64,000 nucleotides of DNA from Patescibacteria group bacterium UBA926 (GTDB lineage: Bacteria > Patescibacteriota > Doudnabacteria > UBA920), in contig DBDS01000004.1 in NCBI GenBank assembly GCA_002293685.1, forward strand, positions 34,479-98,478, given 5' to 3'. The stretch's first letter is position 1, and the number at the start of each line of letters is the position of its first letter. The translations under genes and the position numbers were made by a program. Below the pieces are notes generated by a model that ran no database searches, was not told the origin of the DNA, and saw only the letters and a list, made by a program, of their open reading frames with translations. This document shows positions 14,750 to 62,975 of the stretch, piece after piece.

Positions 14750-17700
14750 ATGACAGAACAAACTAACAAACCACAATCAAATACTCCAAATTTTAACGAA
14801 CAAGAACTAGAAGTTTTAAAGTTTTGGGCCGAGCAAAATATTTTTGAGAAGAGCTTAGAGCAAACTAAAGATGCTAAACCTTTTGTTTTTTATGATGGAC
14901 CACCGTTTGCAACAGGAGTTCCTCACTACGGACACATTTTAATTTCGGCCGTTAAGGATGCATTCGGTCGTTATCAAACCATGAAGGGCAATTCTGTGCG
15001 TCGTGTTTGGGGATGGGATTGTCATGGGTTGCCTATTGAAAATATTGTTGAAGCCAAGCTTGGTATTTCTGGAAAGAAGCAAATTGAAGAAGTCGGTGTC
15101 GAAAAGTTCAACGCAGCTTGTCGTGAAAACGTCCTTACCTATGTAGACGAATGGGGTCGTACCATTGAGCGATTAGCACGCTGGGTTAACTTCAAGGACT
15201 CCTATAAAACTATGGACACCACCTACATGGAAAGTGTCTGGTGGGGTGTAAAGCAAGTGTGGGATAAAGATTTAATTTACCCTGACCATAAAGTTTTGCT
15301 TTACTGCAGTCGCTGTGAAACGCCATTGTCGAATTTTGAAGTGGCGATGGACAACAGTTATAAAGATGTCACAGAAGCTTCTGTTTTCGTCAAGTTCAAG
15401 TTAAATAGTGGTCAGCGAATTTTGGATTTCATGACCGACGATAAAACTTATGCTTTGGCGTGGACCACAACACCGTGGACATTACCTGGTAATACTGCGC
15501 TAAACATTGGCCCAGAAATCACTTACGTTATTGTTGAGCAAAACGGCGATAACTATATTTTAGCTAAGGACAGATTGGAAATTTTAGAAGGGCAATACGA
15601 AGTTAAGACAGAAATCAGTGCACGTTCTTTGGAGGGCTTAGCTTACGAACCATTGTATCCTGGCGTAATTTCCGATGAATCTGGTACTGCTCACAAGATA
15701 TATATAGAGGATTATGTCACAACTACTGATGGAACAGGGATAGTTCATAATGCTGCGATGTATGGGGAAGAAGATTTCGCGGCTGCCAAGGCACGCAATT
15801 TACCTCGTCAACATATGTTGGATGCGAAGGGTGAGTATCTACCATCTGCGCCTGAGAGCTTGCGCGGCGTGTTCTTTAAAGATGCTGATAAAATTGTTCT
15901 CGATGAATTGACTAGCAAAAATTTGGTTTATAAAACTCTTAACTACACTCACAGTTATCCTCACTGTTGGCGTTGTGGTACAGCGTTGTACTACTCAGCG
16001 TTACCAGCTTGGTTTATCAATATTCAAAAAGTGAAAGCGCGAATGCTCGAACTTAACGAAGGAATCAATTGGTATCCTGAACATCTTAAACACGGTCGCT
16101 TCGCGCAAGGAATTGAAAATGCGCCTGATTGGAACATTTCACGTAACCGTTATTGGGCAACGCCTTTGCCATTTTGGTTGTGTGAGAGCGAAGATTGCGA
16201 TAACAAAGTTTGTATAGGCTCAATTGATGAACTAAAAACCAGAGCTTCAAATTTCGATGAAGTTTATCCAAACTACGATCCGAACCCCTCCCTACCCTCC
16301 CCTCAGGAGGGGAGGGATAGGGAGGGGTCAATTGATTTGCATAAACCATTCATTGATAGAATCAAACTGCCTTGTGAAAAATGTAGCGGTGTAATGGCTC
16401 GCGTTCCTGAAGTAATTGATTGCTGGGTTGAATCTGCGAGCATGCCGTTTGCAGAACTCCATGCCCCGTTTGAAAACCAAGATTTGTTAGAACAGCGCTT
16501 ACCAGCAGATTTTGTATCTGAATATATTCCGCAGACCCGGGCTTGGTTCTACGTGTCGCATGTAATGAGCACGATCATTTTCGACAAAGCTCCGTTTAAA
16601 AATGTGATTACAACCGGAACAGTTTTAGCAGAAGACGGTACAAAGATGTCGAAATCAAAAAATAATTTCCCTGACCCAAATCTTGTTATTGATCAATACG
16701 GCGCAGATCCACTTCGTTTTTATCTTTTGACGAGTTCGATTGTAACCGGTGAAGACTTGAATTTCTCTGAAGCTGGCGTTTCTGAAGTAAACCGAAAGTT
16801 AAGTTTAATTCTTTGGAACACATTCCAGTTTTATAGAATGTATAGCCACGACACAATTGGCACCGAAGCGCCTCACGTAACTCACAGCCTAGATGTTTGG
16901 ATGCTGTCTAGATTGTTTGCAACACATGCTGAAGTTACAAAACAATTAGATGGTTTTAACACAGTGAAGGCAGGACGTGCTATTTCTGAATTAGTTACCG
17001 AACTTTCAACTTGGTTTGTTCGTCGCAGCCGCGATAGAATTAAATCCGGTGGGGAAGACGCTCGCACCGCGCTTCAAGTATTAGGTTTCAGTCTTGTTGA
17101 AATCAGCAAGATGCTTGCGCCATTTATGCCGTATCTCAGTGAAAAGATTTACAAAGAACTTACCGGTGAAGAATCAGTGCACTTAGCTTCTTGGAGTGAA
17201 GTTCGTGAGTATCGTCAAAGTAGTTTGGATGAAATGTCGGCTTTACGTTCAATAGTTGAAATCGGTCTAAGTCTTCGTAAAGAACACAACTTAAAAGTTC
17301 GCCAACCACTCGCAGAATTACAGTACCAAATTGCTAACGAAGAATTGAATCTAGACGAATCACTCGAGCAAATCATTGCCGAAGAAATGAATGTGAAGAA
17401 AGTGACAAACACCGAAGTAATCTCTCGCACCAACTGGGTCTCGAAAGCGGATAATGGTTTTATAGTTGCACTAAATACAGAGTTATCACAAGAATTAAAA
17501 GATGAAGGTTTGGCTCGTGATATCGAACGCGCCGTTCAAGATTTGCGAAAGAAGAGTGGTCTAAAAGTCGGACAAATTGTTGATTTGTATTTCACAACTA
17601 AGGACGACAACCTTGCCGAGATTCTTACATCATTAGTTGATCGAAAAAAGACTTTTATCAATCAAATTAAAACTAGCTTAGAGATTGAAGCTGATTACGA

Positions 17701-17755
17701 GACCCAGGCAACGATTAATGGCTCTGTGGTTTGGCTCGGCTTAGTTTTGGTGTAA
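14750..17755 (+). CDS. ileS: isoleucine--tRNA ligase
   Basis: 1001-aa protein with HYGH and KMSKS motifs. It matches IleRS throughout and carries a 45-bp palindromic in-frame insert. Confidence 0.95.
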   Translation: MTEQTNKPQSNTPNFNEQELEVLKFWAEQNIFEKSLEQTKDAKPFVFYDGPPFATGVPHYGHILISAVKDAFGRYQTMKGNSVRRVWGWDCHGLPIENIVEAKLGISGKKQIEEVGVEKFNAACRENVLTYVDEWGRTIERLARWVNFKDSYKTMDTTYMESVWWGVKQVWDKDLIYPDHKVLLYCSRCETPLSNFEVAMDNSYKDVTEASVFVKFKLNSGQRILDFMTDDKTYALAWTTTPWTLPGNTALNIGPEITYVIVEQNGDNYILAKDRLEILEGQYEVKTEISARSLEGLAYEPLYPGVISDESGTAHKIYIEDYVTTTDGTGIVHNAAMYGEEDFAAAKARNLPRQHMLDAKGEYLPSAPESLRGVFFKDADKIVLDELTSKNLVYKTLNYTHSYPHCWRCGTALYYSALPAWFINIQKVKARMLELNEGINWYPEHLKHGRFAQGIENAPDWNISRNRYWATPLPFWLCESEDCDNKVCIGSIDELKTRASNFDEVYPNYDPNPSLPSPQEGRDREGSIDLHKPFIDRIKLPCEKCSGVMARVPEVIDCWVESASMPFAELHAPFENQDLLEQRLPADFVSEYIPQTRAWFYVSHVMSTIIFDKAPFKNVITTGTVLAEDGTKMSKSKNNFPDPNLVIDQYGADPLRFYLLTSSIVTGEDLNFSEAGVSEVNRKLSLILWNTFQFYRMYSHDTIGTEAPHVTHSLDVWMLSRLFATHAEVTKQLDGFNTVKAGRAISELVTELSTWFVRRSRDRIKSGGEDARTALQVLGFSLVEISKMLAPFMPYLSEKIYKELTGEESVHLASWSEVREYRQSSLDEMSALRSIVEIGLSLRKEHNLKVRQPLAELQYQIANEELNLDESLEQIIAEEMNVKKVTNTEVISRTNWVSKADNGFIVALNTELSQELKDEGLARDIERAVQDLRKKSGLKVGQIVDLYFTTKDDNLAEILTSLVDRKKTFINQIKTSLEIEADYETQATINGSVVWLGLVLV
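16284..16328. repeat. in-frame palindromic insert in ileS: ACCCCTCCCTACCCTCCCCT|CAGGAGGGGAGGGATAGGGAGGGGT
   Basis: Near-perfect 45-bp palindrome, GC-rich, encoding PSLPSPQEGRDREGS (15 codons). Confidence 0.85.
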
Positions 17756-17773
17756 TCGTGGTATAATAATTCT

Positions 17774-18072: not shown

Positions 18073-18103
18073 ATATTAATCACAGCTTGTTTGATATAAT
18101 TAA

Positions 18104-18382
18104 CCCTGTTAAATAATTTCAAATTTAAACATGCACTATGTTTATGTACTGTGTTCAGAGAAGGATAAAAAATGGTATACTGGTTATACTAGAAATTTGA
18201 AATTAAGATTTGAGCAACATAGGTTAGGTAAAGTAGTTTCTACTAAGCATCGCAGGCCTTTGAAGCTAATTTATTATGAAGCCTGTTTGAACCAACAAGA
18301 TGCAACTCACCGAGAAAAGTATTTAAAAACTTTTCATAGTAAAGTATTTATCAAACGTAGGCTCAAATCTTATTTAACAGGG
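18104..18382 (+). mobile_element. minimal GIY-YIG cassette: 84-aa nuclease gene bounded by inverted repeats CCCTGTTAAATAA / TATTTAACAGGG
   Basis: The inverted repeats abut the ORF, whose last codons YLTG* are encoded by the right-hand repeat. ORF-less repeat pairs occur at 11716-11816, 12734-12825 and 57209-57313. Confidence 0.6.
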
Positions 18383-18385
18383 TAA
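18131..18385 (+). CDS. GIY-YIG nuclease family protein (COG2827-like)
   Basis: MHYVYVLCSEKDKKWYTGYTRNLKLRFEQHRLG, carrying the GIY...YIG motif. Confidence 0.8.
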   Translation: MHYVYVLCSEKDKKWYTGYTRNLKLRFEQHRLGKVVSTKHRRPLKLIYYEACLNQQDATHREKYLKTFHSKVFIKRRLKSYLTG

Positions 18386-18387
18386 AC

Positions 18388-21764: not shown

Positions 21765-21806
21765 ACTCTACCCCGATTTGTGCGGCCGCACAAATCGGGG
21801 TAGAGT
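21765..21806. repeat. 42-bp perfect palindrome (second copy of the GCGGCCGC-core hairpin) between convergent genes
   Basis: ACTCTACCCCGATTTGTGCGG|CCGCACAAATCGGGGTAGAGT. Its 36-bp core is identical to 192-227. Confidence 0.9.
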
Positions 21807-25606: not shown

Positions 25607-25614
25607 GGAATAAA

Positions 25615-25693
25615 CAGTAATCAGTAAGAAGTAAATAGTAGTAAGTAAGAAGGGTAAATACATTTTACTTATTACTCTTTACTTTCTACTTAA
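25615..25693. repeat. AT-rich GTAAG/CTTAC imperfect long hairpin just upstream of rsmA
   Basis: AGTAAGAAGTAAATAGTAGTAAGTAAGAAGG...CATTTTACTTATTACTCTTTACTTTCTACTT. A similar element lies at 35795-35888. Confidence 0.6.
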
Positions 25694-25700: not shown

Positions 25701-26654
25701 ATGACAATAGATACTCTTAAAAGTTTATTAAAACACTATGGTCTAAATCCTAACAAGACATACGGTCAGCATTTTTTAATGGACGAAACAATTCTTGAAG
25801 ACATGGCTGATGTTGCTGATGTTAAAGCGGGGGATATGGTTGTAGAAATCGGACCAGGGATTGGTAACTTGACTGAAATTTTGTTAAAGCGAGAAGCAAC
25901 TGTTTTATCAATTGAAAAAGATGAACAGTTTATAAGAGTTCTTCGCACGCTTTCAAAGCAATACAAAAATTTTGAGTATGAGTTAATTGATGCATTGAAA
26001 TTTAATTTCTCCTCTTTCCTGTCATCCCCGGGCGAGCGTAGTGAGAACCGGGGATCCACTAGTGGGTCCCGGCTAGCCCGCGCGACTTCGTCCGCCAAAA
26101 TCTCTACGAGATTTAGGCGGACTTCGTCGCTTGTAGCTGCCGGGAAGACACCACAGTATAAAGTTGTCGCCAACATTCCTTACTACATCACTGGGAAAAT
26201 TGTTCAATTGTTTTTGAAGCAGGAGCATAAACCAAAAAGCATGACATTGCTTATGCAGAAAGAAGTTGCTAACAATATTGTTGCGAAAGTTGGACAACTA
26301 AACTTGTTAGCAATTTCTGTACAACTATATGGCGACGCAAAATTAGTTACAAAAGTTCCTGCTTTTAAATTTCATCCGGCTCCAAAAGTTGAGAGCGCAG
26401 TTATTCATATCGAATTATTTTCCAAACCAAAATATAAATTGAAAGACGAGCAAAAGTTTTTTCGAGTGTTGCGCGCTTGCTTTGCAGGGAAGCGAAAGCA
26501 AATCCATAACACACTGACAAATAATTTAGGACTAGAAAAAACTGTTGCATTGCAAAGTTTGGAAAATATAAATGTTGACCCAACGGCAAGACCACAGCAA
26601 CTAACAATCGAACAATGGATTAAGTTAGTAGACTCAATTGAATTGCCAAATTAA
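25701..26654 (+). CDS. rsmA: 16S rRNA (adenine1518/1519-N6)-dimethyltransferase RsmA/KsgA with ~44-codon in-frame GC-rich insert
   Basis: Contains GQHFLMDE, VVEIGPGIGNLT and YKVVANIPYYITG motifs. It is 317 aa versus ~270 for typical KsgA. The insert lies between FNF and YKVVANIPY. Confidence 0.9.
   Translation: MTIDTLKSLLKHYGLNPNKTYGQHFLMDETILEDMADVADVKAGDMVVEIGPGIGNLTEILLKREATVLSIEKDEQFIRVLRTLSKQYKNFEYELIDALKFNFSSFLSSPGERSENRGSTSGSRLARATSSAKISTRFRRTSSLVAAGKTPQYKVVANIPYYITGKIVQLFLKQEHKPKSMTLLMQKEVANNIVAKVGQLNLLAISVQLYGDAKLVTKVPAFKFHPAPKVESAVIHIELFSKPKYKLKDEQKFFRVLRACFAGKRKQIHNTLTNNLGLEKTVALQSLENINVDPTARPQQLTIEQWIKLVDSIELPN
26019..26150. repeat. GC-rich palindromic element E6 inserted in frame in rsmA
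   Basis: TGTCATCCCCGGGCGAGCGTAGTGAGAACCGGGGATCCACTAGTGGGTCCCGGCTAGCCCGCGCGACTTCGTCCGCCAAAATCTCTACGAGATTTAGGCGGACTTCGTCGCTTGTAGCTGCCGGGAAGACA. It is homologous to 53002-53039, 57601-57679 and 14583-14657. Confidence 0.9.
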
Positions 26655-26667: not shown

Positions 26668-26782
26668 TGTCATCCTGAGCGTAGCGAATGATCTAGTTCC
26701 GAGATTCTTCGGCTTTGCCTCAGAATGACATTTGGCACTCCGCATTTGAGTTAAAAATGATCCCGGGTCTCAGCCCGGGATT
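26668..26782. repeat. GC-rich palindromic element E7 (12-bp termini TGTCATCCTGAG / CTCAGAATGACA) plus GATCCCGGGTCTCAGCCCGGGATTT hairpin
   Basis: The element sits in the convergent intergenic region and probably doubles as a bidirectional terminator. Its reverse complement is homologous to the gatB insert at 60733-60822. Confidence 0.85.
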
Positions 26783-26797
26783 TCTTTATGTTTTGTT

Positions 26798-27739: not shown

Positions 27740-27740
27740 A

Positions 27741-28442: not shown

Positions 28443-28445
28443 AGT

Positions 28446-38891: not shown

Positions 38892-38898
38892 AACCTTA

Positions 38899-39055
38899 GT
38901 CATTCTGAACAAAGCAACTTCATCATTCTGAGCTCTTCGAAGAATCTACCTCTGTCATTCTGAAGCCGTAGGCTGAAGAATCCAATAATTAGAGATCCTT
39001 CGCTTCGCCCGCCAAAATCCCTTTGAGATTTAGGCGGATTACGCTCAGGATGGCA
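38899..39055. repeat. GC-rich element E8: three tandem GTCATTCTGA(A/G) sub-units plus a CGCCAAAATCCCTTTGAGATTTAGGCGGA module
   Basis: Read directly from the sequence. The CGCCAAAATC...GAGATTTAGGCGGA module also occurs inside the rsmA insert at 26085-26125. Confidence 0.85.
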
Positions 39056-41238: not shown

Positions 41239-41283
41239 AAATACTATACACAAAATTTTATATTATCCTTGGCTTAACTAAGT

Positions 41284-41376
41284 ATCCCCGGCGAAGGCCG
41301 GGGCCTACATCACAGATCCCGGATCGCCTTTGGCGTCCGGGAATACTTTTTTTGTCATCTCAGCGTCTGGGAATAC
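41284..41376. repeat. GC-rich palindromic element E9 (ATCCCCGGCGAAGGCCGGGG ... ATCCCGGATCGCCTTTGGCGTCCGGGAAT ... TGTCATCTCAGCGTCTGGGAAT)
   Basis: Homologous to the segment at 62717-62790 inside miaA. Confidence 0.85.
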
Positions 41377-49497: not shown

Positions 49498-49565
49498 GAT
49501 TAATTATAATCTAACCTTGATAAAATCACGTTTAAGTTTTTTTCAAAGTTGAACTAAGTTTTGGA

Positions 49566-49673
49566 TGTCATTCCTGGGCGCGAGCGGAGTGGGCGAACCG
49601 GGAATCTATTAAAGTGACAAGCTGATTTAGTGGATCCCCGGTTCTCACCCTACGGGTGAGCCCAGGGATGACA
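49566..49673. repeat. GC-rich palindromic element E10 with 13-bp termini TGTCATTCCTGGG / CCCAGGGATGACA
   Basis: 108-bp unit in AT-rich intergenic DNA, with internal palindromes CCGGTTCTCACCCTACGGGTGAGCCCAGG. Confidence 0.9.
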
Positions 49674-49723
49674 AAAAGTAAAACCCTCCTACGTCAACCT
49701 AGCGGTGGACTTCGCAGGGCAAG

Positions 49724-52631: not shown

Positions 52632-53144
52632 ATGTTTAAGAAAGCTCGACCACTGAAAGATCCTTCCGATTACGACCACGGCTATCAATATGCCTTATTC
52701 TTGCTCAATTTAAGCATGCGGACTGTTGGCGAAGTAAGAGACAAAATGACTAGTCGCGGATACACTTCTACTGTAATAAACGAAGTTATAAACAATCTGT
52801 TACAAGAAAAATACTTGAACGACTCAAATTATGCCGAAGTTTTTATAAATAGTATGAAAAACTATAAAACTTGGGGTCGGTTCATGATGAAAAAGAAGAT
52901 GTATGAGAAAAAATTACCGAAAGAATTAATTGACGAAAGCTTAAATGAATTTTTAAGTACCAAAGAAGAGAAGGAAATTGCTATGAGGTATCTATCTTCC
53001 ATGTCATCCTCGGTCGAGCGAAGCGAGAACCGGGGATCCATTGAATGGATTAAATCCCTGCCTTACGACGAAAAACAAAAACTAATGAGAAAGTTATTAT
53101 CACGCGGGTTTGGGATGGACATAGTAACAAAACTAATAAAATAA
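52632..53144 (+). CDS. recX: RecX-family regulatory protein with short in-frame GC-rich insert
   Basis: 170-aa ORF with a three-helical-repeat pattern (YALFLLNLSMRTVGEVRDKM...). Confidence 0.6.
   Translation: MFKKARPLKDPSDYDHGYQYALFLLNLSMRTVGEVRDKMTSRGYTSTVINEVINNLLQEKYLNDSNYAEVFINSMKNYKTWGRFMMKKKMYEKKLPKELIDESLNEFLSTKEEKEIAMRYLSSMSSSVERSENRGSIEWIKSLPYDEKQKLMRKLLSRGFGMDIVTKLIK
53002..53039. repeat. truncated copy of the rsmA-type GC-rich element inside recX (TGTCATCCTCGGTCGAGCGAAGCGAGAACCGGGGATCC)
   Basis: ~85% identical to 26021-26055. It is translated in the same frame (ERSENRGS). Confidence 0.85.
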
Positions 53145-53737: not shown

Positions 53738-53825
53738 AATATATTGTCCCTCACTATCAGATTTTCGAACTTGCCCAGTATACCAAAAACAGGCACTTTT
53801 GTCAATACCTGTTTTATGAATTATA

Positions 53826-55055: not shown

Positions 55056-55571
55056 TTAACTAACAGGTCCACATTTAGCTGGTTCAATAATTCTATCCAC
55101 TTTTTCCAACCGAACTGAACCGCCGCCAGTGTTGTAATAACCTTCTTTGAAGCTTGAGTAAACTATAGAAGCTTTTCCTGAAATTTGTTCGCACTTATCT
55201 CCATCTAATTTGCCAGCACTGTTAGTGTTGAGCATTAGTTTAGCCTCAGCTTGGTTTTCAAAACAGTAGGTTGGATTTCCTGCATCAGGGGTAAAGCATA
55301 ATGTGTCTGGTGCGATTCCAATAGCATACATACTAAATGTTCCAGAAATTCGAGTGTGTCCTGTAGGTAGTACTGCTTCTGTGTTATCGGGTTTTGCTTG
55401 CTCTGGTTCAGGTGTGGTGCTCTCATTTTCGTTGTCCGGAGTTTTGTCTTGCACTGTTTCGTTAGACGAGTTGATTTCGCTTTGGTTTTTATCTTTTAAA
55501 ACTAGTGACCACACCAGTAATATTGAAAGAGCGACAACTGCAATTATTGCAACAATGATTTTTGTATTCAT
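55056..55571 (-). CDS. hypothetical secreted protein
   Basis: 171-aa ORF with an N-terminal TM/signal segment. Confidence 0.4.
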   Translation of the reverse strand: MNTKIIVAIIAVVALSILLVWSLVLKDKNQSEINSSNETVQDKTPDNENESTTPEPEQAKPDNTEAVLPTGHTRISGTFSMYAIGIAPDTLCFTPDAGNPTYCFENQAEAKLMLNTNSAGKLDGDKCEQISGKASIVYSSFKEGYYNTGGGSVRLEKVDRIIEPAKCGPVS

Positions 55572-57186: not shown

Positions 57187-57208
57187 TATTTATTCCCTCT
57201 ATAATTTA

Positions 57209-57313
57209 CCCTGTTAAATATAGCTGAAATTAGCTAGTTTAGAAGACGTGTTTTGGTTTCGTAAAAGTGTTATAATTAACACATAAATCATAAATAATTT
57301 AACAAGGTAAATG
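57209..57313. repeat. ORF-less inverted-repeat module CCCTGTTAAATA ... ATTTAACAAGGTAAATG abutting the gatC start, with internal extended -10 TGTTATAAT
   Basis: Same half-sites as the GIY-YIG cassette. The right-hand half-site is degenerate by one base. TATAAT at 57271-57276. Confidence 0.7.
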
Positions 57314-57592: not shown

Positions 57593-57600
57593 TCTTAAGT

Positions 57601-57679
57601 ATCCTCGGGCAAAGACCCGGGGTCTGGATCCCGGCTAGCTCGCGCCCCGCTTCACGGGACTTGTAGCTGCCGGGATGAC
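57601..57679. repeat. GC-rich element E12 ending CCGGGATGAC, which overlaps the gatA ATG
   Basis: GGATCCCGGCTAGCTCGCGCCCCGCTTCACGGGACTTGTAGCTGCCGGGATGAC. It is homologous to 26060-26150 and to the reverse complement of 14583-14657. Confidence 0.85.
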
Positions 57680-59195
57680 TTATAGCATGAACTACGAAGA
57701 ATTATCTCTCGCTGAGTTGCGGGAAAAATTGGATAACAAAGAAGTTTCGTCAGTCGAACTGACGAACTATTTTTTGGCGCGAATCAAAGAGCAGAATCCG
57801 GAGCTCAATGCGTTCATTACAATTACTGAACAAGAAGCGTTAGAACAAGCAAAAGAAGCTGATGAATTTATAAACTCACCAGGCGACAACTTTCCACTAA
57901 CAGGAATTCCTTTTGCAGCGAAAGATTTATTTTTAACTAAGGGTATTCGTACAACAGCAGCTTCAAAAATTTTAGATAACTATATCCCGCCGTACGACGC
58001 AACTGTAATTGCAAAACTGAAAGAGCAGAAAGCAGTGTTGCTTGGTAAAGCGAACATGGATCAGTTTGCGCATGGCTCATCGGGTGAAACATCTGCTTAT
58101 GGCGCAACCAAAAATCCGTGGGACAAAACTCGTATGCCTGGCGGTTCTTCTTCGGGTAGTGCTGCTGCAGTGGCTGCGGGGCTTGCTCCTTGGGCTTTAG
58201 CTACAGAAACAGGCGGCAGTATTCGCCAACCTGCTTCGTTAACCGGCGTAAGTGGTTGGAAACCAACTTATGGCCGTGTTTCGCGATATGGAGTAGCGGC
58301 GATGGCTTCAAGTTTGGACAGCATGGGCGCTATGGCTACAAGCGTAAAAGATTTGGCAATGATTGCCGAAAGTATTTCTGGTCATGATCCAAAAGATGGC
58401 ACAACTGGAGAGCGTGAAGTTCCTGCTTACTCAAAATTACTGGACGCAAATATCAAAGGAATGAAAATCGGTGTGCCTAAAGAATATTTTGTTGATGGAA
58501 TGGAAGCAGGGGTGCGGGAAGCTGTCGAGAAGGCAATTGAAGAAATAAAAAACTTAGGTGCAGAAATTGTTGAGGTTAGTTTACCAAACACAAAGTACGG
58601 TTCGCTTGTTTACGCAATCGTATGTCCAAGCGAAGTATCTTCAAACCTAGCTCGTTACGATGGAATTCGTTACGGCCATTCCACATCTGAAGGCGGCAGT
58701 TTATTAGATGTGTACCAGAAAAGCCGCGCGGAGGGCTTTGGTGACGAAGCCAAACGCAGAATTATGACAGGTACTTACGTTCTTAGCGCGGGCTATTACG
58801 ATGCTTATTACAAAAAAGCGCAGCGCGTGCGTCGTAAGATTTTAAATGAATTCGAAGAAGTTTTTAAGCGGGTAGATATTTTACTTGCACCATCAAGTCC
58901 GAATGTTGCTCAGCCTTTGGGGAACGCCGCGAGTGATCCATTGTTTGGATATATCGCCGATCAATTAAACATCCCAGCTTCATTGGCAGGTTTGCCTGCA
59001 TTGTCGTTGCCGTGTGGTTTTGCTTCCCCTCCTTTCCAAGGAGGGGTGGCCGAGTCCGCGACAGCGGGCGAGGACGGGGTGCTACTTCCAGTTGGACTTC
59101 AAATCATCGGTCCGCAATGGGGCGAACAAAAAGTTTTTAATGTTGGATACGCTTATCAGCAAGCAACTGATTGGCATACTAAGAAAGCAAAATAA
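57675..59195 (+). CDS. gatA: Glu-tRNA(Gln) amidotransferase subunit A with ~18-codon in-frame hairpin insert
   Basis: Amidase signature GGSSSGSAAAVAAGL, with catalytic Ser/Lys context. The true start may be Met at 57687. Confidence 0.95.
   Translation: MTYSMNYEELSLAELREKLDNKEVSSVELTNYFLARIKEQNPELNAFITITEQEALEQAKEADEFINSPGDNFPLTGIPFAAKDLFLTKGIRTTAASKILDNYIPPYDATVIAKLKEQKAVLLGKANMDQFAHGSSGETSAYGATKNPWDKTRMPGGSSSGSAAAVAAGLAPWALATETGGSIRQPASLTGVSGWKPTYGRVSRYGVAAMASSLDSMGAMATSVKDLAMIAESISGHDPKDGTTGEREVPAYSKLLDANIKGMKIGVPKEYFVDGMEAGVREAVEKAIEEIKNLGAEIVEVSLPNTKYGSLVYAIVCPSEVSSNLARYDGIRYGHSTSEGGSLLDVYQKSRAEGFGDEAKRRIMTGTYVLSAGYYDAYYKKAQRVRRKILNEFEEVFKRVDILLAPSSPNVAQPLGNAASDPLFGYIADQLNIPASLAGLPALSLPCGFASPPFQGGVAESATAGEDGVLLPVGLQIIGPQWGEQKVFNVGYAYQQATDWHTKKAK
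59037..59090. repeat. in-frame CCCCTCCTTTCCAAGGAGGGG hairpin element in gatA
   Basis: Perfect 8-bp stem. The insert encodes ASPPFQGGVAESATAGEDG between the conserved CGF and LPVGLQIIG. It is homologous to 62155-62215 in miaA. Confidence 0.85.
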
Positions 59196-59669
59196 ATGAA
59201 CAAGCCTTCAGCGATTACTAAAGGTATATTTATAATCTTAATGCTACTAATTGCAGCGTTTGCTTTATTGCCTTTATACTTGATTAAGCAAAACGTAACT
59301 GCTTTGGTTGATGGTCGTCAAATAGTAGGCGAAGTCATGAATGTTCAGACCCAGATTACTGGCAGTTGTTTTTCAGAAGTTGACTGCCGTTCAGATGTGA
59401 TTAAGCAGATAAAGTATTTTGATGATAATGGGAATGAACAGTTTTTTACAACTTCAGCTTATAGTAGTGTTTCTTTTCTGGGATTGTTTGATGAGGGTGA
59501 TAAAGTGAATTTAGTGGTGATTAATGAGGATTTTAGTAGTATTCAAGTGTATCTACCTTTTGTAACATGGGCTTACATTTTTCTACTTCTTGTGATTGTT
59601 GCTCTGGCTGTTAAAGGAGCAATTGCATTTTTACATCACAACAAGAACATACAAGGTAATCAAATATGA
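59196..59669 (+). CDS. hypothetical two-TM membrane protein inserted between gatA and gatB
   Basis: Overlapping stop/start codons on both sides (translationally coupled). Confidence 0.45.
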   Translation: MNKPSAITKGIFIILMLLIAAFALLPLYLIKQNVTALVDGRQIVGEVMNVQTQITGSCFSEVDCRSDVIKQIKYFDDNGNEQFFTTSAYSSVSFLGLFDEGDKVNLVVINEDFSSIQVYLPFVTWAYIFLLLVIVALAVKGAIAFLHHNKNIQGNQI

Positions 59670-61252
59670 ACTTAAACGGATACAAACCAGTTATCGGACT
59701 CGAAATCCACGTACAGCTTGCAACCAAAAGCAAGATGTTTTCTAGCGCGCCTAATAATCCTGACGAAAAACAGCCAAATACTAATATAGACGAAGTCGTT
59801 ACGGCGGAACCGGGAACTTTGCCGGTGCTTAATAAAGAAGCGGTTCGTCTTGGGGTGATGGTGGGTTTGGCTTTAAATTGCGAAATTCCTGAATACTCAA
59901 AATTTGATCGGAAACATTATTTCTATCCAGATTTACCGAAAGGTTATCAGATTTCTCAGTACGATGAACCAATTGCCTTAAACGGTTGGGTAGAAATTTT
60001 GGTACCAACAAATGGGGAACGCGATGCTTACACTAAACGCATCCGCATCACCCGCGCACACTTGGAAGAAGATGCTGGTAAAAACATGCACCCAGAAGGT
60101 TTGCCATATTCGCTCGTTGATTACAATCGAGCCGGTAGTCCGCTTTTAGAAATTGTCACCGAACCAGATATAGAAACTGCCGAAGAGGCGCGCATCTTCT
60201 TGCAGGAATTACAAAGAATTGTTCGCTATGTCGGAGCGAGCTCTGCTGATATGGAAAAAGGCACAATGCGTTGTGAGCCAAACATTTCAGTTCGCAAACC
60301 CGGAGAAGAAAGCTTGCCAAAATACAAGGTTGAAGTGAAAAACATCAACAGTTTTAAATTTGCGGAAGCAGCAATCAATTACGAAATTCCTCGTCACATC
60401 GAAATGCTTGAAGCAGGTGGCATGCCAAAGCAAGTCACGATGGGTTGGAATGAGAAAACTAACAAGACTGTTGAACAACGCAGTAAGGAAGAAGCAAATG
60501 ATTATCGCTATTTCCCCGAACCAGATTTAGCGCCAATGCGTTTTACAAAAGAATTTCTTGATGAACTGCGGGGAGATTTACCTGAATTGCCATCACAAAA
60601 GCGCGTGCGTTTCAAACAAGAGTTTGCTCTTGATGAATCTGTAATCGAAACTTTACTAAATTGGAAAGACCTCAATGAATATTTTGAGGATGTTGTTAGT
60701 GAGATTGACGCTTGGATAATTACTGACTCCAGTGTCATTCTGAGTGATAGCGAAGAATCTCAATCATCAGATCCTTCGGCTTCGCCTCAGGATGACGGGA
60801 AAGAGATCTCTCAGGATGACGGAAAAAGAGCGAGATTAATCAAAGCGGCGGCGAATTGGTGCATTCAAGAATTTTCAGCTTTACTAAATGCCGACTTGGC
60901 AAACCCAAGTGACTCAAAAGTTTCAGCAGAAAATATGGCTGAACTTGTAAAGCTAATTGACGCTGGAAAAATTTCTGGTTCAGCAGCGAAGCAAGTATTT
61001 AAAAAGATGTATGAAACTGGCGGTGAGCCAGACCATATAGTAGAAGAACTTGGCTTGTCACAGGTTAGTGATGAAGGAGCAATTGAAACTGCAGTAGACG
61101 AAATCATCGCTGCAAATCCGAAAGCCGTAGAGGATTACAAAGCTGGTCAACAAAAATCGTTCGGCTTCTTGGTAGGGCAAGTGATGGCGGCCATGAAAGG
61201 AAAAGCTAATCCACAAGTGGTTAACGAAATTTTAAAAGAGAAATTATCATAA
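59666..61252 (+). CDS. gatB: Asp/Glu-tRNA amidotransferase subunit B with ~30-codon in-frame insert before the C-terminal YqeY-like domain
   Basis: Conserved N-terminus MNLNGYKPVIGLEIHVQL and the GatB/GatE catalytic core. Confidence 0.95.
   Translation: MNLNGYKPVIGLEIHVQLATKSKMFSSAPNNPDEKQPNTNIDEVVTAEPGTLPVLNKEAVRLGVMVGLALNCEIPEYSKFDRKHYFYPDLPKGYQISQYDEPIALNGWVEILVPTNGERDAYTKRIRITRAHLEEDAGKNMHPEGLPYSLVDYNRAGSPLLEIVTEPDIETAEEARIFLQELQRIVRYVGASSADMEKGTMRCEPNISVRKPGEESLPKYKVEVKNINSFKFAEAAINYEIPRHIEMLEAGGMPKQVTMGWNEKTNKTVEQRSKEEANDYRYFPEPDLAPMRFTKEFLDELRGDLPELPSQKRVRFKQEFALDESVIETLLNWKDLNEYFEDVVSEIDAWIITDSSVILSDSEESQSSDPSASPQDDGKEISQDDGKRARLIKAAANWCIQEFSALLNADLANPSDSKVSAENMAELVKLIDAGKISGSAAKQVFKKMYETGGEPDHIVEELGLSQVSDEGAIETAVDEIIAANPKAVEDYKAGQQKSFGFLVGQVMAAMKGKANPQVVNEILKEKLS
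60733..60822. repeat. GC-rich element E14 inside gatB (TGTCATTCTGAG...CCTCAGGATGACGG...CTCAGGATGACGG)
   Basis: Homologous to the reverse complement of the intergenic element at 26668-26730. It encodes SVILSDSEESQSSDPSASPQDDGKEISQDDG. Confidence 0.85.
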
Positions 61253-61760: not shown

Positions 61761-61814
61761 TAATTATTTTCTCCTTCAAGTTGTATTTTCGTTTTTCAAC
61801 GAAAAATTATTCTA

Positions 61815-62975
61815 TCACCTTAGGAGCTTTTTGGCAAGGGTGATTAACTCGTCTGGTGAATCGGACCAATGAATATCTTTATTCCGTTTCCACCAAGTTA
61901 GTTGACGTTTGGCGTATTGTCTAATGGATATCACTGACAGTTCCTGCATTTGTTTGGCAGTAATTTTATTCTGCAAAAACTGAGCTGTATATTTATATTC
62001 TAATCCGAAGCTTTCAAATCTTTTCCAAGATACACCATTTTTGTGAAGCGAACTTACTTCATCGATCATACCGCGCTTTAACCAAGACTTCATTCGTTTA
62101 CTGATTTTACCTTCTAATACTTCCATGGATGGGTTTATTCCTAACCAAAGTGTCGACCACCCCGTCTTCGCCTTCGGCGAATCCACCCCTCCTTGAAAAG
62201 GAGGGGAGAGCAAAGGCACAGGTTTGCCAGTTGATTTAACAATTTCAATTGCTCGTATCAGACGGTGAGGATTTTTTTCATCAATAGTTTTTGCACGTTC
62301 CGGGTCTAGCTTCATAAGCATCTTAAACATCTCAGTAGTGCTGAGTTTAGATAATTTTGCTCGGAGTTTCAAATCAGGTTTGACTTTTGGAAATTGTTGA
62401 TTGAATGCAACTGAATCAATCCAGTGCATAGTGCCGCCGCAGAGGATTGGTAGCTTACCGCGTTTTAAAATATCCGAAATTATTTTATGTGCCTTTCGCT
62501 GAAATTTCTCTGCGGAATATTGTAGCTTTGGATTAGCTTCATCAATTAAGTAGTGGGGAATTGATTTGTAAATAAAGACTTTTTTGGAAATAGATCCTTC
62601 GACTCGCTTCGCTCGCTCAGGATGACGTGGAGTAGATCCTTCGACTCGCTTCGCTCGCTCAGGATGACGTGGAGTAGATCCTTCGACTCGCTTCGCTCGT
62701 CCGTGAATACTAGATGGGATAGCAGTATCCCCGGCGAATGCCGGGGTCTGTAATGTAGATCCCGGATAGCCCTGCGGGCTTCCGGGATGACTGGAAAATG
62801 GAACTGTCATCCATTTTCCAGTCACTTTCCCGCTTCCAATATCTAGCCCACGATAAATTTGTCGGCTGTCTGCCGAAATAATTTCACCATTAAATTTCTT
62901 GGCTAATTTAACAGCCAATTCACTTTTTCCACTAGCTGTTGGACCGACAACAATTACGAGCTTTGGTTTGTTCAT
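61815..62975 (-). CDS. miaA: tRNA dimethylallyltransferase MiaA carrying two in-frame GC-rich inserts (~85 extra codons)
   Basis: P-loop VIVVGPTASGKSELAVKLA and ISADSRQIYRGLDIGSGK, then a long insert before the conserved SIPHYLID. It is 386 aa versus ~300 aa for typical MiaA. Confidence 0.9.
   Translation of the reverse strand: MNKPKLVIVVGPTASGKSELAVKLAKKFNGEIISADSRQIYRGLDIGSGKVTGKWMTVPFSSHPGSPQGYPGSTLQTPAFAGDTAIPSSIHGRAKRVEGSTPRHPERAKRVEGSTPRHPERAKRVEGSISKKVFIYKSIPHYLIDEANPKLQYSAEKFQRKAHKIISDILKRGKLPILCGGTMHWIDSVAFNQQFPKVKPDLKLRAKLSKLSTTEMFKMLMKLDPERAKTIDEKNPHRLIRAIEIVKSTGKPVPLLSPPFQGGVDSPKAKTGWSTLWLGINPSMEVLEGKISKRMKSWLKRGMIDEVSSLHKNGVSWKRFESFGLEYKYTAQFLQNKITAKQMQELSVISIRQYAKRQLTWWKRNKDIHWSDSPDELITLAKKLLR
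62155..62215. repeat. in-frame CCCCTCCTTGAAAAGGAGGGG hairpin element in miaA (homolog of the gatA insert)
   Basis: Its reverse complement CCCCTCCTTTTCAAGGAGGGGTGG...GACGGGGTGG aligns with 59037-59090. It encodes LSPPFQGGVDSPKAKTG. Confidence 0.85.
62591..62823. repeat. complex GC-rich insert in miaA: 42-bp tandem repeat x2.4, a homolog of intergenic E9, and a GACTGGAAAATGG...CCATTTTCCAGTC hairpin
   Basis: TAGATCCTTCGACTCGCTTCGCTCGCTCAGGATGACGTGGAG is repeated head to tail (62591-62700). The next segment, 62717-62790, is ~80% identical to 41284-41344. Confidence 0.9.

What the first reader, a model, noticed from the sequence alone, without database searches (positions are those of the whole stretch)
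16284..62823. GC-rich palindromic mini-elements inserted in frame inside six intact housekeeping genes (Rickettsia-RPE-like 'selfish DNA in proteins')
Seen in sequence:
- ileS (16284-16328), rsmA (26019-26150), recX (53002-53039), gatA (59037-59090), gatB (60733-60822) and miaA (62155-62215 and 62591-62823) each contain a GC-rich palindromic segment. The segments belong to the same repeat families found in intergenic DNA.
- The ORFs stay open through every insert.
- In rsmA the insert falls between the conserved FNF and YKVVANIPY motifs. In gatA it falls between CGF and LPVGLQIIG. In miaA it falls between IGSGK and SIPHYLID.

Established knowledge: the only well-known precedent is the Rickettsia palindromic element (RPE), which inserts in frame into protein-coding genes.

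Inference: an analogous element family is proliferating in this AT-rich, small-genome organism and is tolerated as surface-loop insertions.
Basis: partly seen in the sequence, partly recalled or inferred. Interest (0 to 1): 0.9.

Follow-up and report, generated by a model that had tools for sequence, protein, structure and literature searches.

The report
REP-type hairpin repeats inside housekeeping genes
Short GC-rich hairpin repeats of a widespread bacterial family (the one that includes two Rickettsia "palindromic elements" and the Neisseria NTS repeat) sit in frame inside six intact essential genes of an ultra-small Patescibacteria genome, which extends a known phenomenon to a new phylum.

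Summary
All seven segments exist, all six ORFs stay open, and the closest relatives (80-98% DNA identity) lack them. Solved-structure homologues of GatA, GatB and IleRS also lack them. The RsmA and MiaA inserts model as disordered loops.

The organism is a Candidatus Doudnabacteria (Patescibacteria/CPR) MAG. A close relative has an 851-kb contig.

Most segments are built from units with the signature TGTC/CGTC tag, a stem starting A-T, and a CCA/CTA tail. This is the published "CGTC-tagged REP" superfamily (Di Nocera 2013), which already includes Rickettsia RPE-4/RPE-6 and Neisseria dRS3/NTS. NTS is the ssDNA target of the GIY-YIG nuclease Ssn (Chenal 2025). The same unit occurs in Alphaproteobacteria, Gammaproteobacteria, Cloacimonadota, Omnitrophota and several CPR lineages.

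In-frame intragenic REPs are documented in many species, so RPE is not the only precedent.

New points:
- A CPR host with a high intragenic share (7 of about 16 clusters).
- Recurrent hits at the same loop in MiaA and RsmA orthologues.
- A 42-nt array that varies in copy number between strains.
- An ileS copy that arrived as a 19-nt to 52-nt replacement inside a locally diverged tract, which suggests spread by recombination.

The mobilising enzyme is unknown. Verdict: new member of a known kind.

The parts
16281..16332 (+). ileS insert. A 52-nt segment, containing a near-perfect 45-nt palindrome (16284-16328, CCCCTCCCTACCCTCCCCT..AGGGGAGGGATAGGGAGGGG), replaces 19 nt of host sequence. It encodes NPSLPSPQEGRDREG.
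   Evidence: It is absent from L136 (97.65% nt identical over 23 kb) and from L010. DNA fold is -23.4 kcal/mol, z = -5.7. The inner 22-mer occurs in 31 metagenome stretches; of the 15 plus-strand matches examined, 8 lie in frame within ORFs longer than 300 aa.
26009..26154 (+). rsmA composite insert (net +126 nt, 42 aa). It consists of a TGTC unit (26020-26058), a GGGTCCCGGCTAGCC module, the hairpin 26086-26126, and an inverted terminal module CTTGTAGCTGCCGGGAAGACA (26130-26150).
   Evidence: (D7, D10, D14, I20). Fold z = -5.2. AF2 shows a disordered loop at residues 112-148. All 34 nt differences in rsmA against L136 are synonymous.
53002..53040 (+). recX insert: a single TGTC unit, TGTC-ATCCTCGGT..ACCGGGGAT-CCA (net +27 nt).
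   Evidence: (D7).
59025..59087 (+). gatA insert (net +54 nt). A CCCCTCC-TTTCCAA-GGAGGGG hairpin is followed by a degenerate hairpin that, on the opposite strand, reads CGTC-stem-loop-CCA. It encodes SPPFQGGVAESATAGEDGV.
   Evidence: (I9). It is absent from solved GatA structures 4wj3 and 2df4. The reverse-strand CGTC reading is from direct inspection of the sequence.
60733..60822 (+). gatB insert (87 nt, 29 aa). It is an inverted dimer, TGTCATTCTGAG..CTCAGGATGAC, plus an extra CTCAGGATGAC end. It lies in the linker before the YqeY-like tail domain.
   Evidence: The same insert is present in the distant L133, and absent in L006, L009 and L134.
62154..62217 (-). miaA second insert (net +33 nt). 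It is the same family as the gatA insert and encodes SPPFQGGVDSPKAKTGW. On the + strand it reads CGTC-TTCGCC-TTC-GGCGAA-TCCA followed by CCCCTCC..GGAGGGG.
   Evidence: (I9). Fold z = -3.6. AF2 gives residues 257-269 below pLDDT 50.
62577..62835 (-). miaA first insert (net +222 nt, 74 aa). It has three parts:
- 2.6 tandem 42-nt units (62591-62716, RHPERAKRVEGSTP).
- Two hairpin modules (62724-62792), homologous to intergenic 41281-41345.
- A 15-bp inverted copy of the host flank, TGACTGGAAAATGGA/TCCATTTTCCAGTCA (62793-62835).
   Evidence: (D2, D6). Fold of the 5' part gives z = -7.8; the array does not fold. AF2 gives residues 62-128 below pLDDT 50. The 851-kb relative has one more 42-nt unit (P0269, 400 aa).
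3638..3675 (+). Intergenic unit TGTCATCCTGAGTCCGCCAAAGGCGGACGAAGGATCTA, in the rplT-infC spacer.
3941..4010 (.). Intergenic element bounded by TGTCATCC and GGGATGACA. The right-hand unit (3979-4007) matches the published SRM search pattern.
7571..7693 (.). Intergenic cluster of three units. It includes TGTC-ATCCCCGC-GAAG-GCGGGGAT-CCA (7599-7625), which is nearly the Neisseria NTS consensus, and an inverted CGTC unit (7638-7693).
   Evidence: The NTS consensus is from PMC11893778.
14583..14745 (.). Intergenic composite element, TGTCATCCCGGCAGCTACAAG ... GGGAATGACA, between argS and ileS.
   Evidence: (I7, I20). It is shared with L136 with 2 differences in 163 nt.
26668..26790 (.). Intergenic inverted dimer, TGTCATCCTGAG..CTCAGAATGACA, plus a GATCCCGGG hairpin, downstream of rsmA.
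   Evidence: L010 has 32 nt at this place.
38898..39054 (.). Intergenic cluster of GTCATTCTGA units plus the hairpin homologous to the rsmA module. The element end CTCAGGATGGC supplies an ATG for the downstream ORF.
   Evidence: (D10).
41281..41345 (.). Intergenic double hairpin, homologous (81%) to the module inside miaA.
   Evidence: (D6).
49565..49674 (.). Intergenic full inverted dimer: two TGTC units with the tags facing outward and a 22-nt spacer.
57599..57681 (.). Intergenic composite between gatC and gatA. Its end, CCGGGATGAC, overlaps a spurious upstream ATG of gatA.
   Evidence: (I7, D14).

Best explanation
**What the segments are.**
They are copies of short, GC-rich, hairpin-forming REP-type repeats. 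They occur as single units, inverted dimers, a tandem array and composites. Most carry the signature [C/T]GTC tag, a stem beginning A-T (ATCCCSGG or ATCCTGAG), a loop, the complementary arm, and a CCA/CTA tail. This is the CGTC-tagged REP / NTS / 'Ssn-related motif' superfamily.

**Where they sit, and why the intragenic copies survive.**
The repeats populate intergenic DNA of this Doudnabacteria genome. Copies inside genes survive only where three conditions hold:
- the net length is a multiple of three;
- the GC-rich sequence carries no stop codon;
- the site is a surface loop or inter-domain linker.

Such copies are then translated as disordered loop extensions of otherwise strongly constrained enzymes. 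The translation step is inferred.

**What happens after arrival.**
- Replication slippage changes copy number (shown: the 42-nt array varies between strains).
- Template switching extends palindromes into flanks (inferred from the inverted copy of the miaA flank and from the extended ileS palindrome).
- Copies appear to move between related lineages as alleles by homologous recombination. This is inferred from the diverged tract around the ileS copy and from the patchy gatB distribution.

**The enzyme.**
The enzyme that makes new copies is not identified. No transposase lies in the window. By analogy with Neisseria and Wolbachia NTS/SRM repeats, the leading candidate is a small single-domain GIY-YIG ssDNA nuclease acting on the hairpin in single-stranded DNA.
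For: **Insertion polarity and timing.**
- All seven segments are absent from sister species L006, L009, L010 and L012.
- GatA, GatB and IleRS homologues in the PDB have gaps at these sites.
- L136 is 97.65% identical. It keeps rsmA, gatA, gatB and miaA inserts but lacks the ileS one.

**Family signature.**
- Units at 3980, 7599, 26020, 49566, 49631, 53002 and 62756 have the tag, the A-T stem and the CCA/CTA tail.
- Two units match the published SRM pattern, against 0.11 expected.
- The definitions come from PMC3733652 and PMC11893778.

**Taxonomic spread.**
- The hosts are Alphaproteobacteria, Gammaproteobacteria, Rickettsiales, Cloacimonadota, Omnitrophota, Bacteroidales and CPR. Loops are nearly identical, for example GCGAAGC.

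**Selection on the host genes.**
- All 34 rsmA differences against L136 are synonymous.
- The inserts model as disordered loops.
- The gatB insert is 67% identical between the window and L133, against 87% for the rest of GatB.

**Remodelling after arrival.**
- MiaA is 386 aa here and 400 aa in the 851-kb relative, a difference of one 14-aa unit.
- A 15-bp inverted copy of the host flank lies at the edge of the miaA insert.

**Recombination.**
- The 200 nt upstream of the ileS copy carry 14-16 mismatches per 100 nt against L136. Most of the rest of the gene has 0-4; a further stretch downstream (about nt 1710-2210) has 4-12.
- That tract is about as far from L136 as from L010.

**GIY-YIG link.**
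- In Cloacimonadota locus L040, a 98-aa GIY-YIG gene is flanked on both sides by TGTCATCCCGGG units of this type, in inverted orientation.
- It is 30-32% identical to the two small GIY-YIG ORFs in the window.
Against: - Most intragenic units have loops of 14-30 nt, not the 4-5 nt of canonical CGTC REPs.
- The ileS palindrome has no CGTC tag. The CCCCTCC hairpins of gatA and miaA fit the family only through an adjacent degenerate reverse-strand unit.
- No target-site duplication or clean insertion junction was seen. The only high-resolution junction (ileS) is a replacement.
- The two GIY-YIG genes in the window are not flanked by TGTC units. One is flanked by a different inverted repeat (CCCTGTTAAAT). 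Their closest solved relatives are UPF0213 proteins, and assignment to the Ssn clade (cd10448) could not be tested.
- Only 3 of 120 TGTC-containing loci have a GIY-YIG ORF within 8 kb.
- At the MiaA site, many orthologues carry a unit in the same orientation and frame (HPER..EGS). This could mean one old insertion with repeated loss, not recurrent insertion.
- Translation of the inserts is not demonstrated.
Confidence: 0.8

Rival explanations
1. Old insertions with repeated loss. At least the gatB insert and the first miaA insert entered once in a distant ancestor of these Doudnabacteria. They were then deleted, precisely or nearly so, in many descendants, so the window retains an ancestral state at those sites.
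For: - The gatB insert is clearly the same event in the window and in L133, whose MiaA is only 65% identical. L006, L009 and L134 lack it.
- At the MiaA site, more than 20 of 120 orthologue clusters carry a unit in the same orientation and frame. One basal clade carries it almost throughout.
- Palindromes are known to be deletion-prone (established knowledge).
Against: - Empty sites share a conserved sequence (GatB DGTGDR; MiaA GKW-xxKxFV) across scattered lineages. Independent deletions would not restore such a sequence exactly.
- Within clades that are otherwise empty, the filled MiaA alleles are singletons with different unit subtypes and lengths.
- The ileS, rsmA, gatA and recX inserts have no counterpart in any sampled relative beyond the 98% strain.
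Confidence: 0.25
2. Domesticated functional loops. The inserted peptides were recruited for a function, for example a partner interaction specific to these ultra-small episymbionts, and are kept by selection instead of being merely tolerated.
For: - The gatB insert persists in frame across lineages with about 77% DNA identity.
- The rsmA insert shows 1 synonymous change and 0 non-synonymous changes against L136.
- The same loop is used repeatedly in MiaA and RsmA orthologues.
Against: - The inserted peptides are low-complexity, are predicted disordered, and differ in sequence and length between lineages.
- The gatB insert evolves faster than the rest of the protein (67% against 87%).
- The closest relatives function without the inserts.
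- The array copy number varies between near-identical strains.
Confidence: 0.1
3. Locally generated palindromes. The segments arose in situ through replication template switching or break repair, without any mobile or dispersed source.
For: - An inverted copy of the host flank lies at the miaA insert edge.
- The ileS event is a replacement with no target duplication.
Against: - The modules are shared between genes and intergenic sites in the window.
- They are shared with unrelated phyla at near-identical sequence and with metagenomic ORFs.
- Local events cannot produce that sharing. Template switching explains only the secondary extension of palindromes.
Confidence: 0.04
4. Intervening sequences removed after transcription or translation (mini-introns or intein-like segments), so that the mature proteins lack them.
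For: None was found. Insertions in rRNA genes are common in CPR bacteria (PMC11270868, seen only by its title and abstract).
Against: - There are no Rfam intron hits in the window.
- The sizes are 27-247 nt.
- No intein splice-junction residues were seen on inspecting the insert peptides.
- The reading frame is maintained through every insert and across strains, including a 42-nt (14-codon) copy-number change. Frame maintenance is expected only if the inserts are translated.
Confidence: 0.02

Closest known systems
CGTC-tagged REPs (Di Nocera, De Gregorio & Rocco 2013, BMC Genomics 14:522). The family includes Neisseria dRS3 and Rickettsia conorii RPE-4 and RPE-6.
   Same: - Terminal CGTC/TGTC tag.
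- Stem of 8-9 bp starting with A then T.
- Short CCA-like tail.
- Frequent inverted dimers with structured spacers.
- Mostly intergenic, with in-frame intragenic copies that encode 10-80 aa.
- tRNA synthetase genes and DNA-repair genes among the hosts.
- No dedicated transposase nearby.
   Different: - The host phylum is Patescibacteria/CPR, which is not among the five phyla listed for CGTC repeats.
- Many units have long loops of 14-30 nt with an inner mini-hairpin, against the canonical 4-5 nt.
- A high share of clusters is intragenic (7 of about 16 in 64 kb).
- The genome also has CCCCTCC-type hairpins that lack the tag.
NTS / Ssn-related motifs and the Ssn GIY-YIG ssDNA nuclease family (Chenal et al. 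2025, Nat Commun 16:2388).
   Same: - The unit at 7599-7625, TGTCATCCCCGCGAAGGCGGGGATCCA, is almost the NTS consensus CGTCATTCCCGCGMAVGCGGGAATCYRG.
- Two units match the published SRM pattern.
- The window encodes two small single-domain GIY-YIG proteins.
- A Cloacimonadota locus shows the unit-GIY-YIG-unit arrangement with this exact unit type.
   Different: - No Ssn gene flanked by TGTC units was seen in the window.
- cd10448 membership of the local GIY-YIG proteins is untested.
- No cleavage data exist.
- The paper does not discuss in-frame coding copies or Patescibacteria.
Rickettsia palindromic elements (Ogata et al. 2000 Science; 2002 Genome Res), as cited in PMC10969869.
   Same: - Palindromic repeats inserted in frame into unrelated housekeeping genes of a small genome.
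- Copies are compatible with the protein fold.
- Roughly half of the copies are intragenic.
   Different: - RPE-1 is a longer element of about 150 bp that encodes a conserved peptide. Here the units are 27-45 nt and are combined modularly.
- The host is a free-living or episymbiotic CPR bacterium, not an intracellular alphaproteobacterium.
REPIN/RAYT systems (GTAG-tagged REP doublets mobilised by Y1 transposases).
   Same: - Inverted doublets of hairpin units.
- Presumed ssDNA hairpin recognition.
- Lineage-specific expansion.
   Different: - The tag is CGTC/TGTC, not GTAG.
- No RAYT or other Y1 transposase lies in the window.
- REPINs are almost exclusively extragenic.
Mobile GC clusters and double-hairpin elements of fungal mitochondria. 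This comparison is from memory and was not checked here.
   Same: GC-rich hairpins in AT-richer genomes that sometimes lie in frame inside protein genes.
   Different: They occur in organelle genomes, have unrelated sequences, and probably move by a different mechanism.

Membership tests
CGTC-tagged REP superfamily (PMC3733652) | Unpaired terminal tag CGTC (variants TGTC, CCTC) at one end of the unit. | tested here: met
   The tag is TGTC, CGTC or AGTC in the nine GC-rich units found by the hairpin scan. GTCATYCYSRG occurs 11 times against 0.23 expected.
CGTC-tagged REP superfamily (PMC3733652) | Stem of 8-9 bp whose first two residues are A and T. | tested here: met
   The stems are ATCCCCGG, ATCCCGGG, ATCCCCGC and ATTCCGGA, each of 8-10 bp.
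CGTC-tagged REP superfamily (PMC3733652) | Loop of 4-5 nt. | tested here: inconclusive
   Met by the units at 7599 (GAAG) and 3980 (5 nt). The rsmA, recX, miaA and 49.6-kb units have loops of 14-20 nt. Units with loops that long are also common among the cross-phylum hits.
CGTC-tagged REP superfamily (PMC3733652) | Short unpaired tail close to CCA. | tested here: met
   The tail is CCA or CTA after the 3' arm in all nine units, and CCA or CTA in the 136 units from other genomes.
CGTC-tagged REP superfamily (PMC3733652) | Many dispersed copies, mostly intergenic, often as inverted dimers. | tested here: met
   There are nine intergenic clusters and seven intragenic ones in 64 kb. Inverted dimers lie at 49565-49674, 26668-26732 and 60733-60800. 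The whole-genome count was not obtainable.
Ssn-related motif / Ssn nuclease system (PMC11893778) | Match to the SRM pattern HGTCWYN(0-2)YYVSBRHN(0-5)WNVSBRGN(0-2)RNCYNB, enriched over shuffles. | tested here: met
   Two matches (3979-4007 and 7599-7626) against 0.11 expected. The long-loop units fall outside the pattern.
Ssn-related motif / Ssn nuclease system (PMC11893778) | A single-domain GIY-YIG gene of the cd10448 clade in the genome, typically flanked by the motifs. | not testable with these tools
   Two single-domain GIY-YIG ORFs are present. They are not flanked by TGTC units, CDD assignment is unavailable, and the nearest PDB relatives are UPF0213 proteins.
Ssn-related motif / Ssn nuclease system (PMC11893778) | Site-specific cleavage of the hairpin in single-stranded DNA. 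| not testable with these tools
   This is a biochemical assay.
Rickettsia palindromic elements | In-frame insertion into functional ORFs at positions compatible with the fold. | tested here: met
Rickettsia palindromic elements | Sequence homology to an RPE family. | not tested
   No R. conorii sequence was compared. The link rests on the statement in PMC3733652 that RPE-4 and RPE-6 are CGTC-4 and CGTC-1 repeats. A Rickettsiales MAG (L033) does carry a matching unit.
REPIN/RAYT | GTAG tag and an associated Y1 (RAYT) transposase. | tested here: not met
   The tag is CGTC/TGTC. No Y1_Tnp or any other transposase domain was found in the window ORFs scanned here. The gene tables of the syntenic loci covering the remaining stretches also show none.
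Classical MITE (derived from an IS, with TIRs and target-site duplication) | Target-site duplication and a parent IS with matching TIRs. | tested here: not met
   At the only junction resolved at 97.65% identity (ileS), 19 nt were replaced and nothing was duplicated. No parent IS was found in the window.

The most novel reading that the evidence does not exclude
In Patescibacteria, CGTC/TGTC-tagged hairpin repeats are a general, ongoing source of loop insertions in core enzymes. They would be created at preferred sites by an Ssn-like GIY-YIG ssDNA nuclease. They would then be passed between lineages as in-frame alleles through natural transformation and homologous recombination. On this reading, the repeated hits at one loop (52 of 120 MiaA orthologue clusters enlarged, more than 20 with the same unit, orientation and frame) reflect site-specific targeting, not selection alone. 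This would also give the first candidate answer to how the 'transposase-less' CGTC repeats spread.
Probability: 0.2. Interest if true: 0.7.

Novelty: new member of a known kind. Interest (0 to 1): 0.5.

Why it matters
**What it changes.**
- It places a pan-bacterial repeat family (CGTC REP / NTS / RPE-4 and RPE-6) in the Candidate Phyla Radiation.
- No paper in the searched library mentions REPs or palindromic elements in that group.
- Genomes of about 0.85 Mb, usually described as streamlined, tolerate selfish hairpins inside ileS, rsmA, gatA, gatB, miaA and recX.

**What it makes testable.**
- The strain series gives a natural time course for studying how such inserts arise and spread. The ileS copy is absent at 97.65% identity, the array length is variable, and the gatB allele is old.
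- The co-occurring GIY-YIG cassettes make the proposed nuclease-repeat relationship testable in a second, very distant phylum.

**Practical consequence.**
These inserts inflate protein lengths, create spurious start codons (gatA, ORF 39023), and can mislead annotation and alignment of CPR proteins.

Tried and rejected
- **Self-BLAST.** A self-BLAST of the window at E below 1e-3 missed most short diverged units. It was replaced by motif and tagged-hairpin scans.
- **Rfam.** The gathering-threshold search found only a tmRNA and two tRNAs. No known RNA family covers the repeats.
- **GIY-YIG near TGTC units.** Testing for GIY-YIG genes near TGTC units in 120 loci from other genomes gave 3 of 120. 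That is too weak to argue an association, because most copies of a high-copy repeat are far from any single gene. One locus (L040) shows the flanked arrangement.
- **gatB recombination tract.** A sliding-window comparison of gatB DNA, meant to detect a recombination tract shared by the window and L133, was uninformative. All pairs are about 76-79% identical.
- **Target motif or duplication.** A search for a target motif or duplication at insertion boundaries failed at 80% identity. At 97.65% identity the ileS site showed a replacement.
- **Ancestral linkers.** Rejected, because relatives and PDB homologues lack the segments.
- **Assembly artefact.** Rejected, because the exact proteins recur in multiple independent assemblies.
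- **REPIN/RAYT membership.** Rejected, because the tag is wrong and there is no Y1 transposase.

Full report
**1. Organism and genes**

- The window has about 40% G+C.
- Its MiaA protein is identical to a protein of GCA_003446815.1 ("Patescibacteria group bacterium"). The same protein occurs in JGI and ENA metagenome contigs.
- The nearest named relatives are Candidatus Doudnabacteria.
- Pfam confirms the six host genes as IleRS, RsmA/KsgA, RecX, GatA, GatB and MiaA.
- A very close relative, GCA_022842405.1, has an 851,616-nt contig. This fits a genome below 1 Mb.

**2.

Their G+C is 0.50-0.68, against 0.417 for the host genes.

Syntenic loci were fetched from two sister species: L006/L010 on one 171-kb contig, and L009. 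L012 was fetched as well. Protein identity to the window is 83-96% and DNA identity about 80-86%.

| Gene | What the relatives show |
|---|---|
| gatA | relatives lack 54 nt |
| gatB | relatives lack 87 nt |
| recX | relatives lack 27 nt |
| miaA | relatives lack 222 nt and 33 nt |
| rsmA | relatives lack 126 nt |
| ileS | relatives lack 33 nt (net) |

- Every ORF is open and every net length is a multiple of three.
- The exact proteins recur on 7-11 contigs each, in several data sources, so these are not assembly artefacts.
- Core motifs are far above chance:
  - GTCATYCYSRG occurs 11 times against 0.23 expected.
  - GATCCCSGG occurs 5 times against 0.18 expected.
  - Tagged hairpins number 13 against 3.9 expected.
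- Modules inside genes recur in intergenic DNA (D6, D7, D10, D14, I7, I20).

- The gatA insert begins near 59025.
- The CCCCTCC type has only two copies here, both intragenic.
- The 42-nt array in miaA is a tandem direct repeat that does not fold.
- Three segments (recX, gatA, gatB) fold no better than shuffles. ileS, rsmA and the other miaA parts fold strongly.

**3. Where the inserts sit in the proteins**

AlphaFold2 models:

| Protein | Insert residues | Confidence | Flanking elements |
|---|---|---|---|
| RsmA | 112-148 | pLDDT below 50, coil | helix 103-108 and strand 153-158 |
| MiaA, first insert | 62-128 | pLDDT below 50, coil | two strands of a beta-hairpin |
| MiaA, second insert | 257-269 | pLDDT below 50, coil | helix 236-249 and strand 274-280 |

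Solved structures:
- GatA structures (4wj3, 2df4) have a gap exactly between PCGF and LPVGLQ.
- GatB structures (3al0, 3h0l) join the helical domain to the tail domain where the insert lies.
- IleRS (8c9d) lacks the segment in its zinc-knuckle region.

The host genes are under strong constraint. rsmA differs from the 97.65%-identical strain at 34 nucleotides, and all 34 changes are synonymous.

**4. What the repeats are**

Intergenic copies show the unit plainly. It is a TGTC or CGTC tag, an 8-10-bp stem starting A-T, a loop, the complementary arm, and a CCA or CTA tail. An example is TGTC-ATCCCCGC-GAAG-GCGGGGAT-CCA at 7599-7625.

- Units pair as inverted dimers with the tags outward (49565-49674, 26668-26732, and the gatB insert).
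- Units also combine with other small hairpins into composites (rsmA, 14583-14745, 57599-57681).

This is the published definition of CGTC-tagged REPs (PMC3733652). That paper states that:
- the tag is often TGTC;
- stems are 8-9 bp and start with A-T;
- tails are close to CCA;
- dimers are common;
- R. conorii RPE-4 and RPE-6 and Neisseria dRS3 belong to the family;
- intragenic in-frame copies encoding 20-82 aa occur in several species, including in tRNA synthetase and repair genes;
- no dedicated transposase is known.

The unit at 7599 is also almost the Neisseria NTS consensus CGTCATTCCCGCGMAVGCGGGAATCYRG. That consensus is cleaved as single-stranded DNA by the small GIY-YIG nuclease SsnA (PMC11893778). 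The degenerate "SRM" pattern from that paper matches two window units, against 0.11 expected.

The hosts were:
- Bradyrhizobium, Bosea, Methylobacterium and Microvirga;
- Gammaproteobacteria MAGs and a Rickettsiales MAG;
- Cloacimonadota, Omnitrophota and Bacteroidales;
- the CPR lineages Saccharibacteria, Doudnabacteria, Falkowbacteria and Berkelbacteria.

The inner loop sequences were often the same as in the window's recX unit, for example CGAGCGAAGCGAGA.

The ileS palindrome belongs to a second family:
- Its inner 22-mer has 31 exact metagenome hits.
- I examined the 15 plus-strand hits. Eight lie in frame inside ORFs longer than 300 aa. One of those hosts looks like PurH, judged from a sequence motif.

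The gatA insert and the second miaA insert share a CCCCTCC hairpin. On the opposite strand they also share a degenerate CGTC-stem-CCA unit. That reading is from the sequence and is less certain.

**5. Dynamics**

- **Lineage-specific enrichment.** Sister-species loci hold 0-1 motif hits, against 11 in the window.
- **A very close strain.** L136 is 97.65% identical over 23 kb. It shares every repeat cluster in that stretch except the ileS one.
- **ileS is a replacement.** The host sequence TGCTAACTTAAACGGAATG (19 nt) is replaced by 52 nt. There is no target duplication.
- **A diverged tract lies next to it.**
  - The 200 nt upstream carry 14-16 mismatches per 100 nt. Most of the rest of the gene has 0-4, and a further stretch downstream has 4-12.
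  - In that tract the window is as far from L136 as from the sister species.
  - I read this as import of a foreign ileS patch that already carried the palindrome. This is an inference.
- **Array copy number varies.** The same close strain has rsmA, gatA and gatB inserts. Its MiaA has one additional 42-nt unit (400 aa against 386 aa).
- **gatB is old and patchy.**
  - The same 87-nt dimer sits at the same codon in L133, whose MiaA is only 65% identical.
  - L006, L009 and L134 have a conserved empty site.
  - The insert is 67% identical between the two carriers, against 87% for the rest of GatB.
- **Palindrome extension.** The 5' edge of the first miaA insert contains a 15-bp inverted copy of the host flank. 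It forms a perfect hairpin. Template switching at a quasi-palindrome would produce this (inference from established knowledge).

**6. Hot spots**

- **MiaA.**
  - Among the 120 closest MiaA clusters, 52 have at least 8 extra residues at the same loop.
  - More than 20 of these read ..HPER...EGS... This is the unit translated in one orientation and frame.
  - On a neighbour-joining tree these are partly clustered. Others are singletons among empty relatives.
- **DNA confirmation.** Canonical units lie at these sites in L133 and L134 (MiaA) and in L135 (RsmA).
- **RsmA.** Eight of 120 clusters have at least 8 extra residues at the same site.
- **Interpretation.** Target preference, allele transfer, or old insertion with loss could each give this pattern. 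I could not separate them.

**7. Mechanism**

Shown:
- These are REP-type repeats.
- They are lineage-enriched.
- They are in frame and located in loops.
- They are retained under purifying selection of the host gene.
- They are remodelled by slippage.

Inferred:
- They are translated.
- They spread partly by recombination.
- Palindromes are extended by template switching.

Unknown: the enzyme.
- No transposase domain was found in the window ORFs scanned here. The gene tables of the syntenic loci covering the rest also show none.
- Two small single-domain GIY-YIG ORFs are present at about 18131-18385 (+) and about 45679-45915 (-).
- They are not flanked by TGTC units. Their closest solved relatives are UPF0213 proteins.
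- In Cloacimonadota locus L040, a 98-aa GIY-YIG gene is flanked by TGTCATCCCGGG units in inverted orientation. It is 30-32% identical to the window proteins.
- An Ssn-like nuclease is therefore my leading candidate, with low confidence.

**8. Comparison with known systems, and novelty**

- The elements work like RPEs and other intragenic REPs. They pass four of the five sequence criteria of the CGTC-REP superfamily. Loop length is the exception.
- They are not REPINs: the tag is wrong and there is no RAYT.
- They are not classical MITEs: there is no target duplication and no parent IS.
- Two reviews and primary papers show that in-frame REP or MITE fusions are not rare (PMC10969869; PMC3733652).
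- I found no paper linking CPR/Patescibacteria with REPs or palindromic elements.
- I therefore rate this a new member of a known kind, with moderate interest. It gives a new phylum, a dense set of in-frame copies, clear hot spots, and a strain series suited to working out how the "transposase-less" CGTC repeats spread.

Noticed in passing
window 18092-18387; also 11709-11817, 12722-12822, 57200-57312: There is a second mobile-looking family. The motif CCCTGTTAAAT occurs 8 times (1.6 expected) as four inverted pairs. Three pairs bound short elements (starts 77-88 nt apart). One pair bounds an approximately 290-nt element that carries an 84-aa single-domain GIY-YIG ORF. The GIY-YIG element is absent from sister species L010 (287 nt against 6 nt). 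The 57.2-kb element is absent from L006. This looks like a GIY-YIG cassette with MITE-like derivatives.
   Followed up: partly
window about 45679-45915 (-): A second small GIY-YIG ORF (78 aa) lies next to tRNA-Ser(TGA). Its flanks contain hairpins (TGCAACCC..GGGTTGCA and CCATCCGAAGGATGG) that are not TGTC-tagged.
   Followed up: partly
window 25607-25690 and 35808-35889: Two AT-rich palindromic intergenic elements of about 83 nt (GTAAGAAGTAA-type arms, 87% complementary to each other). Both are absent from the sister species L010 and L012.
   Followed up: no
window 192-227 and 21768-21803: Two identical copies of a perfect 36-nt palindrome, CTACCCCGATTTGTGCGGCCGCACAAATCGGGGTAG, in intergenic DNA 21.5 kb apart.
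   Followed up: no
window 46178-46236 and 48664-48721: A conserved block of about 55 nt (93-97% identical) lies at the same offset beside each of the two tRNA-Ser genes (46024-46111 and 48506-48598, both on the minus strand). Its function is unknown.
   Followed up: no
window 59196-59669: The slot between gatA and gatB is variable. The window has a 157-aa predicted membrane ORF with no Pfam match. L009 has nothing (12 nt). L006 has a 534-aa ORF with no Pfam match. L133 has a 74-aa ORF.
   Followed up: partly
window 53189-53866 and 55056-55571: Two ORFs (225 and 171 aa, with hydrophobic N-termini and no significant Pfam match) are absent from the syntenic positions of L006 and L009 (753 nt against 95 nt; 522 nt against 33-74 nt).
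   Followed up: no
window 57675 and 39023-39057: Repeat ends of the form GGGATGAC or CAGGATGGC supply ATG codons just upstream of genes. For gatA this gives a spurious 4-codon extension (relatives and the NCBI annotation start at MNYEEL, 57687). For ORF 39023 the likely start is the ATG at about 39055, inside the repeat end.
   Followed up: partly
window 16160-17000 (ileS nt 1410-2300): Divergence from the 97.65% strain L136 is mosaic. It reaches 8-16 mismatches per 100 nt here, against 0-4 elsewhere in ileS. rsmA also shows clumped synonymous differences (nt 537-843). This suggests frequent homologous recombination among these lineages.
   Followed up: partly
window 27700-38900: There is a conjugation or type IV secretion-like cluster (PrgI-like, TraC-like, TrbL-like and TraG P-loop ATPase). 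It is conserved in the sister species.
   Followed up: no
window 3063-3188: A 21-nt tandem repeat encodes QQQAPAG units at the C-terminus of ORF 2541-3191.
   Followed up: no
L140 and L163 (metagenome contigs Ga0182027_10081622 and Ga0182027_10000964): The ileS-type palindrome (..CCCTCCCCTCAGGAGGGGAGGG..) lies in frame in an ORF longer than 500 aa. The ORF carries a PurH-like motif (KHGNPCGA), and the palindrome encodes NPSLALPSGGEGK. The same repeat lies inside several other long ORFs in these peat or soil-type metagenomes.
   Followed up: partly
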